DNA of 64,000 nt, from the sequence record NC_008720.1; one strand, written 5' to 3'. The position numbers and the translations under genes are program-made. The DNA comes from Escherichia phage N4. The notes beneath the pieces are model-generated. The model was not told the origin of the DNA. It searched no databases and was given only the letters and a program-made list of their open reading frames with translations. Of this stretch, positions 2,593 through 4,528 are shown in pieces (the stretch's first letter is position 1; each line of letters starts with the position of its first letter).

Positions 2593-2808
2593 ATGGAACA
2601 GTTAAACTACGGTTATAAGATTAAACGCAATCAAGTAAGAGGTTCTTGGTTATTTCTCGTTTATGGTAAGCCAATCTATGAATTACATCGTGGAGAGAAA
2701 TCCAAGACCTATTACGTAACTCATATTGCTACAGGAAAAACTCCTGCATGTGCAGGATTGCTTCGTGATGCAATTATGAAAGCATGTATGTTAGAAGGAC
2801 TTCTATGA
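2593..2808 (+). CDS. Hypothetical early protein (71 aa)
   Basis: ORF track; preceded by GAGGAAGGAATA. Confidence 0.5.
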   Translation: MEQLNYGYKIKRNQVRGSWLFLVYGKPIYELHRGEKSKTYYVTHIATGKTPACAGLLRDAIMKACMLEGLL

Positions 2809-3119
2809 ACCAAATCATTGCTATCCCACAGCATAAAGCTCGTATTGCTGACAGGAATATTCGTATTCATTATCCAATGCCTTTGAGCAATCCATTTCAG
2901 AAAAATGAAAGAACCACGGATGAAGATATAGCAGCAGCTTATGAGGCATATCTTCGTAACCGTTTGGTAAGTGGTGACAAGCTCATTACGGCTGAAATGG
3001 AACGAATTGCTAAATTCGTTATAGATGATACTGACAAACCAGTTGGCCTCATCGGTAATGAACTGGAAGTGAATGTAATCCGTAAGATTATTATGGAGGC
3101 TCTTAATGGGAATCAGTGA
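2805..3119 (+). CDS. Hypothetical protein, possible degenerate DUF4326-like (104 aa)
   Basis: ATGA overlap with upstream stop; PLSNPF and AAAYEAYL resemble the N-terminal motifs of the ORF at 3605. Confidence 0.45.
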   Translation: MNQIIAIPQHKARIADRNIRIHYPMPLSNPFQKNERTTDEDIAAAYEAYLRNRLVSGDKLITAEMERIAKFVIDDTDKPVGLIGNELEVNVIRKIIMEALNGNQ

Positions 3120-3282
3120 ATCCCAGGCTATGGCTATTAAACAGTTAGCCTTCAACTGCCTTAGTGCTATGAAGGTATTTAATGAAGCAAAAACTTTCCC
3201 TGACCAGAATAAAGCTCGTATTCGGCTTTATCAGTCTAAGAAAGATTTTGAAGAATATCTGGAAAGTATTACGGTGAGATAA
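3106..3282 (+). CDS. Small hypothetical protein (58 aa, below ORF-track cutoff)
   Basis: Fills the 3119-3282 gap; stop overlaps the next ATG (TAATG), consistent with translational coupling. Confidence 0.3.
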   Translation: MGISESQAMAIKQLAFNCLSAMKVFNEAKTFPDQNKARIRLYQSKKDFEEYLESITVR

Positions 3283-3602
3283 TGAAAACAATACTAATTG
3301 TTCATGATGCTGATTTTAATGATGTTGATAAAATGATGCGTAATATTGATTATGTAGCTCAGACATCTCCAGCATTTAAAGAAGAATTTACTCTATATTG
3401 TGATGCTAATTCACCATTAGTTCCTATTCTGAAAGAGGCCGGTTTACCCTTCTATACAGATAATTTCCCTAAAGAACCTGATTATGTAATTTCATTTATT
3501 TATGACTTACATGATGGTTCAGAACCAAGTGAATTGGCTATGAGTCAATGGCAATCCAGAAGACCTGTATATGCATTTCAGGTAGTTAAATCAAGGAGTT
3601 AA
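3282..3602 (+). CDS. Hypothetical early protein (106 aa)
   Basis: ORF track. Confidence 0.5.
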   Translation: MKTILIVHDADFNDVDKMMRNIDYVAQTSPAFKEEFTLYCDANSPLVPILKEAGLPFYTDNFPKEPDYVISFIYDLHDGSEPSELAMSQWQSRRPVYAFQVVKSRS

Positions 3603-3604
3603 CT

Positions 3605-3973
3605 ATGTTAGGTGATAACACTAATGCTCTGTTTGGAGTGTCAGCCAGACCTATTATCATTGTTAATAAACATCATGGTAAGAAAGGTGAATATATTGGG
3701 CGTGGTTCTCCTCTGGGTAATCCATTCGTTATTGGTAAAGATGGAACCAGAGAAGAAGTAATTGCCAAATATAAAGTATGGCTACAAGAACAGATTGATA
3801 AAGGTAATCCAGTTGTACTGGATGAATTAAATCGTCTTGGTAATAAAGCCATTGATGAAAAAGGATTAGCTTTACAATGCTTCTGTTATCCAAAACCTTG
3901 TCATGGTGAGGTTATTAAAGAGAAGTTAGTAAAAGCTATGTATAACTACTTTGTGGAAAATCCTAATGGATAA
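3605..3973 (+). CDS. DUF4326-like protein (122 aa)
   Basis: GSPLGNPF near the N-terminus and CFCYPKPCHG near the C-terminus, as I recall for the DUF4326 family. Confidence 0.5.
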   Translation: MLGDNTNALFGVSARPIIIVNKHHGKKGEYIGRGSPLGNPFVIGKDGTREEVIAKYKVWLQEQIDKGNPVVLDELNRLGNKAIDEKGLALQCFCYPKPCHGEVIKEKLVKAMYNYFVENPNG

Positions 3974-4151
3974 ACAATGCAAATGTGGTAAAGGCTATGT
4001 ATCCCAATGGGATGGTAAGTGTGGTCATTGTAGAACCAAGAAAGAACAACGTGACCATGAATATGCACTTCAGGAAATGATTGTACCTGTTGAGAATTTA
4101 GGTATGGCTCCACTTGAGGCTTACAAATATATAAGGAGATTATGCAAATGA
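3966..4151 (+). CDS. Small Cys-rich (zinc-ribbon-like) protein (61 aa)
   Basis: CKCG...CGHC motif; ATG at 3966 overlaps the upstream stop. Confidence 0.4.
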   Translation: MDKQCKCGKGYVSQWDGKCGHCRTKKEQRDHEYALQEMIVPVENLGMAPLEAYKYIRRLCK

Positions 4152-4528
4152 AAGAAGTATTCGTATTTGGTTCTAACCTAGCTGGTGTACATGGTGCTGG
4201 TGCTGCAAAGACAGCATATAAAAAACATGGAGCCAGATGGGGTAAAGGGCATGGTCATTATGGTGACAGCTATGCCATTCCCACTAAAGATACCAATATC
4301 AAAACGATGACTATTGAAGACATTCGTACATTTGTAAACGCCTTCATTGTCTATGCTGCTAATCATCCAGAACTTAACTTTAAAGTTACTCGTGTAGGTT
4401 GTGGATTAGCTGGTATTGATGATTCTGTTATGGCCTCTATGTTTAAAAATGCCACTGGTAACTGTTCCTTTGACTTAGCATGGAAAAGTTACTTAGGGGA
4501 TGATTTCAACTACTGGGGGACGTTCTAA
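4142..4528 (+). CDS. Small Rossmann/SLOG-like protein of unknown function (128 aa)
   Basis: N-terminal VFVFGSNLAGVHGAGAA glycine-rich strand-loop motif; family assignment uncertain. Confidence 0.5.
   Translation: MQMKEVFVFGSNLAGVHGAGAAKTAYKKHGARWGKGHGHYGDSYAIPTKDTNIKTMTIEDIRTFVNAFIVYAANHPELNFKVTRVGCGLAGIDDSVMASMFKNATGNCSFDLAWKSYLGDDFNYWGTF

What the first reader, a model, noticed from the sequence alone, without database searches (positions are those of the whole stretch)
2593..4528. Translationally coupled early operon of eight small genes, including DUF4326-like and SLOG/Rossmann-like proteins
Eight ORFs are packed with overlapping stop/start codons (ATGA, TAATG), downstream of a vRNAP promoter and just upstream of the RNAP II genes. 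They include a DUF4326-like protein (3605-3973), a possible degenerate copy (2805-3119), a zinc-ribbon-like peptide and a 128-aa protein with a VFVFGSNLAGVHGAGAA motif that looks like a nucleotide-binding Rossmann/SLOG fold. This is where host-takeover or anti-defence functions would be expected, and none has an assigned function.
Basis: partly seen in the sequence, partly recalled or inferred. Interest (0 to 1): 0.55.

Follow-up and report, generated by a model that had tools for sequence, protein, structure and literature searches.

The report
Phage N4 early genes gp8–gp14
This stretch is the gp8–gp14 early gene block of coliphage N4: one gene is a known inhibitor of host DNA replication, and three others (a DUF4326 enzyme-like protein, a zinc-ribbon partner and a macrodomain) look like an untested kit for removing ADP-ribose marks that bacteria use against phages.

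Summary
The window is coliphage N4 itself. Region 2593-4528 holds seven tightly packed genes, gp8 to gp14, not eight.

It was wrong on three:
- gp14 is a macrodomain of the TARG1/DarG class, not a SLOG or Rossmann protein.
- gp8 has a published function: it inhibits the host DNA polymerase clamp loader.
- No virion-RNAP promoter sits just upstream. A strong terminator-like hairpin does (2522-2547). The hairpin promoters are at 90-102, 557-573 and 4546-4562, the last lying after gp14.

Gene fusions in other viruses link gp12 to gp14 and gp13 to gp12. DUF4326 and gp14-type macro domains are also separately found fused to NADAR and SLOG domains.

My best reading is that gp12, gp13 and gp14 form an early ADP-ribose-processing module, probably for counter-defence. 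That role is inferred and untested. gp10 and gp11 remain unknown.

Much of this was already annotated or predicted in the literature, so interest is moderate.

The parts
2522..2557 (+). Intrinsic-terminator-like hairpin (11-bp stem, 4-nt loop) followed by TATTTTTATC. It closes the gp3-gp7 block and sits 36 nt before gp8.
   Evidence: Consensus scan. RNA fold gives -18.5 kcal/mol with z = -4.65. Annotated as a terminator in phages AL25 and Jura.
2593..2808 (+). gp8, 71 aa: N4 inhibitor of host DNA replication.
   Evidence: Pfam PF25713 N4_GP8, E=1.1e-18, 68 bits against a 25-bit cut-off. The published function (Yano and Rothman-Denes 2011) is cited in PMC4496689 ref 72 and PMC7576135 ref 117. 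Among the fetched DUF4326 loci it occurs only in N4 itself.
2805..3119 (+). gp9, 104 aa: conserved but degenerate DUF4326 paralogue that lacks the family's invariant Arg, three Cys and His.
   Evidence: Pfam DUF4326 at 21.8 bits, below cut-off. phrog_464 E=4.8e-19. BLASTP against gp12 E=4e-9. The alignment shows loss of R33, C92, C94, C99 and H100. It is kept next to gp11 and gp12 in 12 N4-like and G7C-like contigs.
3106..3282 (+). gp10, 58 aa: unknown, seen only in N4-type phages.
   Evidence: Only phrog_35919, of unknown function. No hit in Pfam, NCBIfam or PADLOC. Present in N4 alone among the 80 loci. The few substitutions against relatives are mostly non-synonymous.
3282..3602 (+). gp11, 106 aa: unknown, always found with gp12 in N4-like and G7C-like phages.
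   Evidence: Only 20 clusters in 5.8 billion proteins, all 59-94% identical. No Pfam or PDB sequence match. The gp11+gp12 DNA is about 83% identical in Gamaleyavirus.
3605..3973 (+). gp12, 122 aa: DUF4326 protein with all family invariants (R33, N39, C92, C94, P96, C99, H100). Predicted enzyme.
3966..4151 (+). gp13, 61 aa: CxC...CxxC zinc ribbon with a short C-terminal tail.
   Evidence: Four Cys conserved in 7 homologues. Residues 4-39 match the N-terminal extension of the Erwinia phage Fifi067 DUF4326 protein, E=1e-11 at 47% identity. The ribbon is found in 121 phage records.
4142..4528 (+). gp14, 128 aa (126 aa if it starts at 4148): compact macrodomain of the TARG1/DarG class.
   Evidence: NCBIfam NF049995 A1S_2505_Nterm E=2.9e-45. 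AlphaFold2 model pLDDT 94.7. Foldseek top PDB hits are TARG1, DarG and Poa1p. K49 aligns with the catalytic K84 of TARG1 and with the FPTK Lys of DarG/AdfM. N12 is kept in 149, H17 in 149 and K49 in 135 of 150 representatives.
4546..4562 (+). Virion-RNAP hairpin promoter of the P3 type (AAGCTGC-TCC-GCAGCTT, then TTGG). The inferred start is near 4565. It drives gp15/gp16, not gp8-gp14.
   Evidence: It is one of only three such hairpins in the window, alongside 90-102 and 557-573. The template strand reads CCAAAAGCTGCGGAGCAGC, giving -8G, -9C, -10G, -11G, -12A and four A's as described for N4 promoters in PMC4496689.

Best explanation
Region 2593-4528 is the gp8-gp14 segment of the phage N4 early region. 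It holds seven translationally coupled genes. They are most likely read from the upstream hairpin promoters P1 and P2 by read-through of two terminator-like hairpins, and transcription probably continues into the RNAP II genes.

The block is functionally mixed.

**gp8** is the known stoichiometric inhibitor of the host clamp loader. This is shown in the literature.

**gp12, gp13 and gp14** most likely form an ADP-ribose/NAD-derivative processing module.
- gp14 is a macrodomain that binds ADP-ribose and cleaves the bond at the ribose 1'' position. It would use the Asn/Lys chemistry of the DarG/TARG1 class. The fold and the residue conservation are shown; the activity is inferred.
- gp12 (DUF4326) is a small alpha/beta enzyme. 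Its invariant Cys-rich loop, C-x-C-x-P-x2-C-H, sits between a strand and a helix. I infer that it acts on a phospho-ribose group of the same substrate or of its breakdown product.
- gp13 is a zinc-ribbon partner of gp12, inferred from a gene fusion.

Made within minutes of infection, the module would erase ADP-ribose marks that host defences place on phage DNA, RNA or proteins (DarT-type systems), or destroy ADP-ribose-derived immune signals. This is inferred.

**gp9** is a catalytically dead DUF4326 copy that has been retained, perhaps as a binder or regulator. **gp10 and gp11** are lineage-restricted proteins of unknown role, possibly small host-protein inhibitors like gp8.
For: Identity of the locus:
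- Searches place it in N4-type phages, and one search matches N4 itself.
- gp8 matches Pfam PF25713. The published function is cited in the reference lists found.

gp14 is a macrodomain:
- The AlphaFold2 model has pLDDT 94.7.
- The top PDB hits are TARG1 and DarG, with Poa1p also on the list. Foldseek gives probability 1.00 for the top nine hits, and TM-scores among the TARG1/DarG hits are 0.53-0.63.
- A profile search of PDB sequences returns TARG1 first and aligns PTK49 with the catalytic K84.
- hhalign against DarG plus AdfM gives E=3.9e-4 and aligns all three motifs.
- N12, H17, P47, T48, K49 and G86-x-G88 are kept in 90-99% of 150 representatives that are no more than 50% identical to each other.
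- Relatives are annotated as macrodomain or ADP-ribosylglycohydrolase.

Functional links between the genes:
- P0321 is a DUF4326 + gp14-type macro fusion. gp12 matches it at E=1.6e-20.
- The Fifi067 protein is a gp13-type zinc ribbon + DUF4326 fusion, E=1e-11.
- N4-like contigs carry NADAR-DUF4326 and DUF4326-SLOG fusions with a gp14-type macro downstream.
- Of 53 multidomain gp14 relatives, 4 carry YAcAr SLOG, 2 NADAR, 1 DUF4326 and 1 a weak DprA-like match (E=5.8e-4).
- DUF4326 and macro both lie in the early region upstream of RNAP II in a different Schitoviridae subfamily.

Literature:
- PhiKZ AdfM is a stand-alone phage macrodomain shown to reverse DarT2 ADP-ribosylation of DNA (PMC13309987).

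Gene packing and terminators.
Against: - No activity, substrate or phenotype is known for gp9 to gp14. PADLOC and the literature give nothing specific to N4.
- gp14 matches no Pfam Macro model. Its similarity to DarG/AdfM is weak: hhalign probability 35%, and BLASTP covers only 29 residues.
- gp14 lacks the Asp125 of TARG1; Ala90 stands in that position.
- Outside N4-like contigs, DUF4326 is rarely next to a gp14-type macro. Only 15 of 80 loci have one within 4 kb, and 14 of those 15 are N4-like contigs of about 70-75 kb.
- In T-even and jumbo phages DUF4326 sits among nrd, td and frd genes, or is fused to DNA polymerase I. That points to nucleotide or DNA metabolism rather than defence.
- The four invariant Cys/His residues could instead form a structural zinc site.
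- G7C-like phages keep gp9, gp11 and gp12 but carry a truncated macro without the third motif. So gp12 does not strictly need an intact gp14.
Confidence: 0.5

Rival explanations
1. Nucleotide or DNA-metabolism role. gp12 (DUF4326), with gp14, would serve phage DNA synthesis rather than counter-defence. Examples are salvaging NAD/ADP-ribose or phospho-ribose compounds for the nucleotide pool, or removing a group from DNA or dNTP intermediates during replication.
For: DUF4326 occurs in 1,300 phage records. In T-even phages it is the nrdA.1 gene, lying next to td, frd and nrdA. In the jumbo phage fEgEco12 it lies between a nucleotide reductase and its activase. In Caulobacter phage CcrSC it lies beside a deoxyribonucleotidase and an HD phosphohydrolase. 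In Sphingobium phage Lacusarx it is fused to the N-terminus of DNA polymerase I. PMC7824862 also notes fusions to replication and restriction-modification components.
Against: In N4 the genes lie in the early block, far from the replication genes on the other strand. The fusion partners in N4-like phages are NADAR, SLOG and macro, which are ADP-ribose or nucleotide-signal domains. A TARG1/DarG-class macrodomain has no known role in dNTP synthesis.
Confidence: 0.2
2. Pure host-takeover cluster. Like gp8, the other six products would be small stoichiometric binders of host proteins (replication, division, transcription), and the enzyme-like folds of gp12 and gp14 would be repurposed as binding scaffolds.
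For: gp8 works this way (Pfam PF25713). gp9 has lost every DUF4326 invariant yet is conserved, which suits a binder. gp10 and gp11 are tiny, lineage-restricted and fast-evolving. N4 is said to inhibit cell division through FtsZ and FtsA by products not named in print (PMC4496689 ref 74, listed as submitted). gp9 gives a weak match to the FtsA SHS2 domain, E=5.9e-4 and below cut-off.
Against: gp12 and gp14 keep near-invariant polar residues (R, N, C, C, C, H in gp12; N, H, T, K in gp14) across families of thousands of members in unrelated viruses. That pattern is typical of active sites, not of host-specific binding surfaces.
Confidence: 0.15
3. RNA-repair by-product processing. gp14 would act like yeast Poa1p on ADP-ribose-1''-phosphate (or its cyclic precursor) made when a 2'-phosphate is removed from repaired RNA. 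gp12 would act as the accompanying phosphatase, working with the phage polynucleotide kinase.
For: Poa1p structures are among the gp14 fold matches, and one relative is named 'Macro domain_Poa1p family'. N4-type phages encode a polynucleotide kinase and tRNAs. The published prediction for DUF4326 is removal of ribose-linked terminal phosphates.
Against: No RNA ligase or 2'-phosphotransferase is annotated in the parts of the N4-type genome I inspected: positions 1-50,000 and the early region of the AlfredRasser record. About 12 kb of that record was not inspected. Poa1p ranks well below TARG1 and DarG in the fold search. The kinase is in the middle (replication) block, not the early block.
Confidence: 0.08

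Closest known systems
AdfM (PhiKZ gp104) and the macrodomain of the DarG2 antitoxin
   Same: Both are stand-alone or modular macrodomains of the TARG1/DarG class. gp14 shares the three motifs: Asn plus a Gly-rich loop, [F/I]-P-T-K, and G-C-x-x-G-G/A. DarG structures are among its best fold matches. AdfM is phage-encoded and, like gp14, lacks the DarT-binding domain of DarG2 (PMC13309987).
   Different: Sequence similarity is marginal: hhalign probability 35%, and the profile search of PDB sequences returned no DarG chain. gp14 is about 30 residues shorter. It has an invariant His17 where DarG/AdfM have Met, and G-L-A-G where they have G-N-G-G. No DNA de-ADP-ribosylation or anti-DarT2 activity has been tested for gp14.
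Human TARG1/OARD1 (C6orf130)
   Same: It is the best structural match (4j5q, 4j5r, 2l8r; TM up to 0.63) and the best PDB sequence-profile match. PTK49 aligns on the catalytic Lys84, and RIGCGL aligns on RVGCGL.
   Different: The E-value is only 0.46. The second catalytic residue of TARG1, Asp125, is Ala90 in gp14 and is Ala in 142 of 150 relatives. gp14 also has the N-terminal Asn that, by my recalled TARG1 sequence, TARG1 lacks.
[quoted passage not shown]
   Same: gp12 is a full-length member with every invariant residue. The fusions to Macro, NADAR and SLOG reported by Iyer, Burroughs and Aravind were reproduced here.
N4 gp8, clamp-loader inhibitor (PF25713)
   Same: The first gene of the block is this protein.
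   Different: It has no detectable relation to the other six genes. Among the fetched loci it is found only in N4 itself.

Membership tests
Macrodomain, TARG1/DarG (ALC1-like) class - gp14 | Three-layer alpha/beta/alpha macro fold | tested here: met
   AlphaFold2 model pLDDT 94.7. About 40 of the top 50 Foldseek PDB hits are macrodomains. The best are TARG1, DarG and BT1257-like proteins, with probability 1.00 and TM 0.50-0.63 over the top nine hits.
Macrodomain, TARG1/DarG (ALC1-like) class - gp14 | Catalytic Lys after a beta-strand (TARG1 K84, DarG K80) | tested here: met
   K49 in P-T-K-D aligns with TARG1 K84 and with the F-P-T-K Lys of DarG/AdfM. It is kept in 135 of 150 representatives.
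Macrodomain, TARG1/DarG (ALC1-like) class - gp14 | N-terminal Asn plus Gly-rich diphosphate loop (AdfM N23) | tested here: met
   N12-x4-H-G-A-G-A-A aligns with V-N-x-V-G-V-M-G-x-G. N12 is kept in 149 of 150 representatives.
Macrodomain, TARG1/DarG (ALC1-like) class - gp14 | TARG1 second catalytic residue Asp125 | tested here: not met
   It aligns with Ala90, and 142 of 150 relatives also have Ala there. This argues against TARG1-type chemistry in detail, not against the class.
Macrodomain, TARG1/DarG (ALC1-like) class - gp14 | Match to a curated Macro family model | tested here: not met
   No Pfam Macro family at E<=1. The only curated match is NCBIfam NF049995, 'A1S_2505 family phage non-structural protein'.
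Macrodomain, TARG1/DarG (ALC1-like) class - gp14 | ADP-ribose binding and hydrolase activity | not testable with these tools
   Needs biochemistry.
Anti-DarT2 factor (AdfM-like) - gp14 | Removes ADP-ribose from thymidine in ssDNA and rescues DarT2 toxicity | not testable with these tools
   Only motif-level and fold-level resemblance is available.
   No SLOG, LOG or DprA model matches gp14, and no LOG or DprA (SLOG-type) structure appears in the top 50 fold hits. SLOG domains appear only as fusion partners in relatives.
DUF4326 (PF14216) - gp12 | Family model above the gathering score, with all invariant residues | tested here: met
   81.1 bits against a 25-bit cut-off. R33, N39, C92, C94, P96, C99 and H100 are invariant in 61 sequences.
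DUF4326 (PF14216) - gp9 | Family model above the gathering score, with all invariant residues | tested here: not met
   21.8 bits, below the 25-bit cut-off. It lacks R33, C92, C94, C99 and H100. Homology itself is supported: phrog_464 E=5e-19 and BLASTP E=4e-9. It is therefore a degenerate paralogue, not a functional member.
Rhodanese-phosphatase (Cys-phosphatase) superfamily - gp12 | Shared alpha/beta fold | tested here: inconclusive
Rhodanese-phosphatase (Cys-phosphatase) superfamily - gp12 | C-X5-R active-site loop between a strand and a helix | tested here: not met
   The loop between strand 88-92 and helix 101-118 reads C92-F-C94-Y-P-K-P-C99-H100, that is C-X5-H with no Arg. An invariant Arg33 lies elsewhere in the sequence.
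N4 gp8 DNA replication inhibitor (PF25713) | Family model above the gathering score | tested here: met
   68 bits against a 25-bit cut-off, covering the full length.
Zinc ribbon - gp13 | Two Cys pairs (CxC ... CxxC) conserved | tested here: met
   C5, C7, C19 and C22 are conserved in N4, six homologues and the Fifi067 fusion. The fold and metal binding were not tested.
N4 virion-RNAP hairpin promoter directly upstream of the block | Stem of 5-7 bp, 3-nt loop (template GGA or GAA), conserved -8G/-9C, four A's before +1 | tested here: not met
   The only such hairpins are at 90-102, 557-573 and 4546-4562 (features taken from PMC4496689). None lies between 1100 and 2593.

The most novel reading that the evidence does not exclude
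gp12 (DUF4326), its zinc-ribbon partner gp13 and the macrodomain gp14 act together as a previously uncharacterised enzyme set, possibly with the dead paralogue gp9 and with gp11 as regulators. The set would strip ADP-ribose, including its phosphorylated remnants, from phage nucleic acids, or destroy ADP-ribose-derived immune signals. That would give N4-like phages broad resistance to DarT-type, Thoeris-type or related defences. DUF4326 would then be a new class of cysteine-dependent phospho-ribose hydrolase with a C-x5-H loop. It is found in about 2.6% of sequenced phages, including as T4 NrdA.1.
Probability: 0.25. Interest if true: 0.65.

Novelty: new member of a known kind. Interest (0 to 1): 0.38.

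Why it matters
N4 is a classic model phage with good genetics, yet six of these seven early genes have never been given a function.

If gp12, gp13 and gp14 do erase ADP-ribose marks or signals, N4 would be an easy system in which to work out what DUF4326 does. That domain occurs in 1,300 of 50,697 phage records, and reportedly in giant viruses of amoebae, and has no reported biochemistry. The work would also add a second, very large family of phage macrodomains to the counter-defence list. The gp14 family has 4,233 clusters at 50% identity, alongside the known AdfM.

The practical result for annotation is smaller but certain:
- gp14 should be called a macrodomain protein.
- gp9 is a degenerate DUF4326 protein.
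- gp13 is a zinc ribbon that is fused to DUF4326 in some phages.
- gp8 is the clamp-loader inhibitor.

Tried and rejected
1. **SLOG/Rossmann reading of gp14.** Rejected by the fold search and the family scans.
2. **gp11 as a minimal SLOG domain.** This would have mirrored a weak mSLOG-DUF4326 fusion in locus L090. hhalign gives probability 0.2%. There is no Pfam hit in any of 20 homologues and no PDB sequence hit. Rejected; gp11 stays unknown.
3. **A virion-RNAP promoter just upstream of gp8.** I searched all perfect hairpins with a 3-nt loop and found none of the right type between 1100 and 2593. The GCTCCGC heptamer alone is not significant: 3 matches against 1.7 expected.
4. **Sigma-70 promoters in 1-7000.** There are fewer than chance, 11 against 22 expected, so there is no evidence for host-RNAP transcription of the block.
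5. **PADLOC.** No hit for any of the seven proteins.
6. **DUF4326 against PDB by sequence.** Only spurious matches to designed TPR proteins.
7. **DUF4326 against PDB by Foldseek.** Nothing.
8. **Literature.** Searches for experimental work on N4 gp9-gp14, A1S_2505 or Schitoviridae macrodomains found nothing relevant. The Yano and Rothman-Denes paper itself is not held.
9. **The first search for related loci attempt** failed because the alignment was too divergent. It worked with a tighter alignment.
10. **An N4-encoded ADP-ribosyltransferase** that gp14 might oppose. PMC9503650 names an 'N4-like ART' family, but no ART is annotated in the parts of the AlfredRasser record I inspected: positions 1-50,000 and the early region. 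I did not scan all N4 proteins, so this is left open.

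
Full report
**Identity of the locus**

The 2.1 kb around the finding is 98-98.5% identical to Escherichia phages OLB145, AlfredRasser (Bas69), 3HA13, Jura and others of the genus Enquatrovirus. An IMG/VR contig of 70,153 bp matches gp12 at 100% identity at exactly the window coordinates (L012). The window is therefore the left 64 kb of coliphage N4. Annotated relatives label the genes in 2593-4528 as gp8, gp9, gp10, gp11, gp12, gp13 and gp14. RNAP II subunits gp15 and gp16 follow.

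**Checking the observation**

There are seven genes, not eight:

| Gene | Coordinates |
|---|---|
| gp8 | 2593-2808 |
| gp9 | 2805-3119 |
| gp10 | 3106-3282 |
| gp11 | 3282-3602 |
| gp12 | 3605-3973 |
| gp13 | 3966-4151 |
| gp14 | 4142-4528 (or from 4148) |

The junctions run from a 14-nt overlap to a 2-nt gap. In three relatives that are 98% identical, all seven frames are intact. Differences are mostly synonymous in gp8, gp9, gp12, gp13 and gp14. For gp10 and gp11 the few changes are mixed. The 144-aa antisense ORF at 2721-3155 is not annotated in any relative, and third-position changes follow the plus-strand frames.

**Transcription signals**

PMC4496689 describes the N4 virion-RNAP promoters as follows:
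- small DNA hairpins with a 3-nt loop;
- conserved -8G, -9C, -10G, -11G and -12A on the template strand;
- four A's before the start site.

A search of the whole window for perfect hairpins with a 3-nt loop finds only three of this kind on the plus strand:
- 90-102: GTTGC-TTC-GCAAC
- 557-573: AAGAAGC-TCC-GCTTCTT
- 4546-4562: AAGCTGC-TCC-GCAGCTT

Each is followed by T-rich sequence and GG. Their template strands read ...CCAAAAG-stem-GGA-stem, as described in that paper. I take them to be P1, P2 and P3, with inferred start sites near 107, 576 and 4565.

None lies directly upstream of gp8. What lies there is a strong terminator-like hairpin at 2522-2547 followed by a T-run (-18.5 kcal/mol, z = -4.65). 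A second one lies at 1079-1100 (-15.2 kcal/mol). P3 sits between the gp14 stop codon and the gp15 start codon.

gp8-gp14 are therefore probably expressed by read-through from P1 and P2. With no terminator after gp14, transcription would continue into gp15/gp16 as far as the hairpin at 6680-6705. This is inference; I have no transcript data. Sigma-70-like sites are fewer than chance.

**gp8**

Pfam PF25713, 'Bacteriophage N4 DNA replication inhibitor', matches over its full length at 68 bits. The underlying work is Yano and Rothman-Denes 2011, on a phage inhibitor that targets the clamp loader. It is cited in PMC4496689 and PMC7576135, but I could not read the paper itself. The statement that no gene here has an assigned function is therefore wrong.

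**gp14**

gp14 has no significant Pfam match and matches no Macro model. It does match NCBIfam NF049995, 'A1S_2505 family phage non-structural protein', at E=3e-45.

The family is very large:
- at least 7,998 hits in the word-indexed search;
- 4,233 clusters at 50% identity in the exhaustive search.

An AlphaFold2 model built on 43 sequences has pLDDT 94.7. The top Foldseek hits against the PDB are all macrodomains: TARG1/OARD1, DarG from three species and BT1257-like proteins (probability 1.00 for the top nine). Poa1p and viral macrodomains follow at lower probability, along with a few non-macro folds.

A profile search of PDB sequences puts TARG1 first at a weak E=0.46. It aligns gp14 P-T-K49 with the catalytic Lys84 of TARG1, and R-V-G-C-G-L with R-I-G-C-G-L. 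The Asp125 of TARG1 falls on Ala90.

PhiKZ AdfM is a phage macrodomain shown to remove DarT2-made ADP-ribose from DNA (PMC13309987). It aligns strongly with DarG macrodomains and shares with them V-N-x-V-G-V-M-G, F-P-T-K and G-x-x-N-G-G-L.

A profile-profile comparison of the gp14 family with AdfM plus DarG gives E=3.9e-4 at 35% probability. It lines up all three motifs: N12 with N23, P-T-K49-D with P-T-K78-D, and G-C-G-L-A-G with G-C-A-N-G-G.

Conservation across 150 representatives that are no more than 50% identical to one another:

| Residue | Kept in (of 150) |
|---|---|
| N12 | 149 |
| H17 | 149 |
| P47 | 149 |
| T48 | 148 |
| K49 | 135 |
| G86 | 147 |
| C87 | 136 |
| G88 | 143 |

I conclude that gp14 is a compact, divergent macrodomain of the TARG1/DarG class with an intact-looking active site. 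It is not a SLOG protein.

**gp12 and gp9**

gp12 is a clear DUF4326 protein (E=9e-23). In an alignment of 61 diverse viral sequences, the invariant residues are R33, N39, C92, C94, P96, C99 and H100.

gp9 matches the same PHROG over the same profile region and aligns with gp12 at E=4e-9. It has lost R33 and the whole C-x-C-x-P-x2-C-H loop. Even so, a gp9-like gene is kept together with gp11-like and gp12-like genes in all 12 N4-like and G7C-like contigs examined. It is a retained, probably non-catalytic paralogue rather than a decaying one.

The gp12 model has pLDDT 94.1. The Cys-rich loop lies between strand 88-92 and helix 101-118. That is the position of the P-loop in cysteine phosphatases, but it reads C-x5-H rather than C-x5-R.

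Fold searches for gp12:
- Foldseek finds nothing.
- No solved structure matches by sequence.

The published placement of DUF4326 in the rhodanese-phosphatase superfamily (PMC9503650) is thus compatible with my results but not confirmed by them. A structural CCCH zinc site is an alternative reading of the invariant residues that I could not test.

**gp13, gp10 and gp11**

gp13 has C5, C7, C19 and C22 conserved in every homologue. Its ribbon occurs in 121 phage records. In N4-like phages it sits between the DUF4326 and macro genes, and it also occurs in SP6/K1E-like phages.

gp10 is found only in N4-type phages. gp11 has just 20 clusters of relatives, all from N4-like and G7C-like phages. It has no family or structure match. 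My idea that it is a minimal SLOG domain failed.

**Links between the genes**

- P0321 (225 aa) is a DUF4326 domain fused to a gp14-type macrodomain. gp12 matches it at E=1.6e-20.
- In Erwinia phage Fifi067, from a different Schitoviridae subfamily, the DUF4326 protein carries an N-terminal extension that matches the gp13 ribbon at E=1e-11 and 47% identity. A gp14-type macro lies 0.8 kb downstream, and RNAP II genes follow.
- Other N4-like contigs carry NADAR-DUF4326 (L024) and DUF4326-SLOG (L033, L041) fusions, each with a gp14-type macro downstream. L091 has DUF4326-YAcAr.
- Of 53 multidomain relatives of gp14, four carry YAcAr SLOG, two NADAR, two WYL_2, one DUF4326 and one a weak DprA-like match (E=5.8e-4).

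These results reproduce the associations reported by the Aravind group (PMC7824862, PMC9503650). They add the gp13-gp12 link.

**Evidence that cuts the other way**

- Only 15 of 80 DUF4326 loci have a gp14-type macro within 4 kb, and 14 of those 15 are N4-like contigs. The adjacency may largely reflect one lineage.
- In T-even phages DUF4326 is nrdA.1 and sits among nucleotide-synthesis genes. In a jumbo phage it lies between a nucleotide reductase and its activase. In Lacusarx it is fused to DNA polymerase I.
- G7C-like phages keep gp9, gp11 and gp12 but have a shortened macro that lacks the third motif.

**Most likely mechanism**

What is shown:
- gp8 is the known replication inhibitor.
- gp14 has a macrodomain fold with conserved DarG/TARG1-type residues.
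- gp12 is a conserved DUF4326 with enzyme-like invariant residues.
- gp13 is a zinc ribbon that is fused to DUF4326 elsewhere.

What I infer:
- gp14 hydrolyses an ADP-ribose conjugate or derivative.
- gp12, helped by gp13, acts on a phospho-ribose part of the same pathway.
- Made at the very start of infection, they protect N4 from host ADP-ribosylation of its DNA or RNA, or from ADP-ribose-based alarm signals, as AdfM does for PhiKZ.

I put this at about 0.5. The main rival is a nucleotide or DNA-metabolism role for DUF4326 (0.2). Next come a set of pure host-protein binders (0.15) and clean-up of RNA-repair by-products (0.08).

**Novelty and verdict**

The genes are annotated in a model phage. 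gp8 is characterised. gp14 is already labelled a macrodomain in some records. The DUF4326-macro-SLOG-NADAR association is a published prediction.

What this analysis adds:
- correction of the SLOG call;
- the promoter and terminator layout;
- the degenerate but retained status of gp9;
- the gp13-DUF4326 fusion;
- the residue-level match of gp14 to DarG/TARG1;
- a fold comparison for DUF4326.

This is a new member of known kinds. It is of moderate interest and gives a clear, cheap experimental path.

Noticed in passing
window 90-102, 557-573, 4546-4562: These are the three virion-RNAP hairpin promoters of N4. Their template-strand loops are GAA, GGA and GGA, and the inferred start sites are near 107, 576 and 4565. 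P3 lies in the 74-nt gap between gp14 and gp15.
   Followed up: yes
window 1079-1100, 2522-2547, 6680-6705: Three strong terminator-like hairpins with T-runs divide the early region into blocks: gp1-gp2, gp3-gp7 and gp8-gp16. Their folding energies are -15 to -20 kcal/mol, with z about -4.6 to -5.2.
   Followed up: partly
window 2805-3119 (gp9): gp9 gives a weak, sub-threshold Pfam match to the SHS2 domain of FtsA (E=5.9e-4, 20.6 bits). PMC4496689 lists an unpublished manuscript saying that N4 inhibits cell division through FtsZ and FtsA, without naming the gene. This may be coincidence.
   Followed up: partly
loci L015, L018-L020 (G7C-like contigs), about 4367-4717: In G7C-like phages the gene right after DUF4326 is a shortened gp14 homologue of 117 aa. 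It has altered first and second motifs (T-N...H-N-N, P-V-K/R-D) and no G-C-G-L-A-G motif, so the macrodomain there looks degenerate. No gp13 homologue was detected in these loci.
   Followed up: partly
locus L009 (phage T2) 2483-2809; L005 (KVP40) 2510-2794: The T-even gene nrdA.1 is a DUF4326 protein. The domain occurs in 1,300 of 50,697 phage records and is often mislabelled 'NrdA-like ribonucleotide reductase'.
   Followed up: partly
locus L011 (Sphingobium phage Lacusarx) 2426-4900: A DUF4326 domain sits at the N-terminus of the annotated DNA polymerase I ORF.
   Followed up: no
locus L003 (phage Jura) 5509-6018; locus L092 (AlfredRasser) 44279-44875: Homing or HNH endonuclease genes are inserted between the two RNAP II subunit genes in Jura and inside the DNA polymerase gene in AlfredRasser. 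The N4 window has neither at the RNAP II site.
   Followed up: no
window 3282-3602 (gp11); window 574-1071 (gp2): Some records carry doubtful names. gp11 is called 'antirepressor protein' in PMBT57 and VEc25, with no support from any family search. gp2 is called 'RNA polymerase RNAP1 subunit A' in AL25.
   Followed up: partly
whole N4 genome (not located): PMC9503650 names an 'N4-like' family of ADP-ribosyltransferases that is common in phages. I did not find which protein this refers to, if it is an N4 protein at all. An N4-encoded transferase would bear on what gp14 reverses.
   Followed up: partly
window 2721-3155, minus strand: This 144-aa antisense ORF overlaps gp8 to gp10 and is the longest ORF on that strand here. 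It is unannotated in relatives, and substitutions follow the plus-strand frames, so it is probably a chance ORF.
   Followed up: partly
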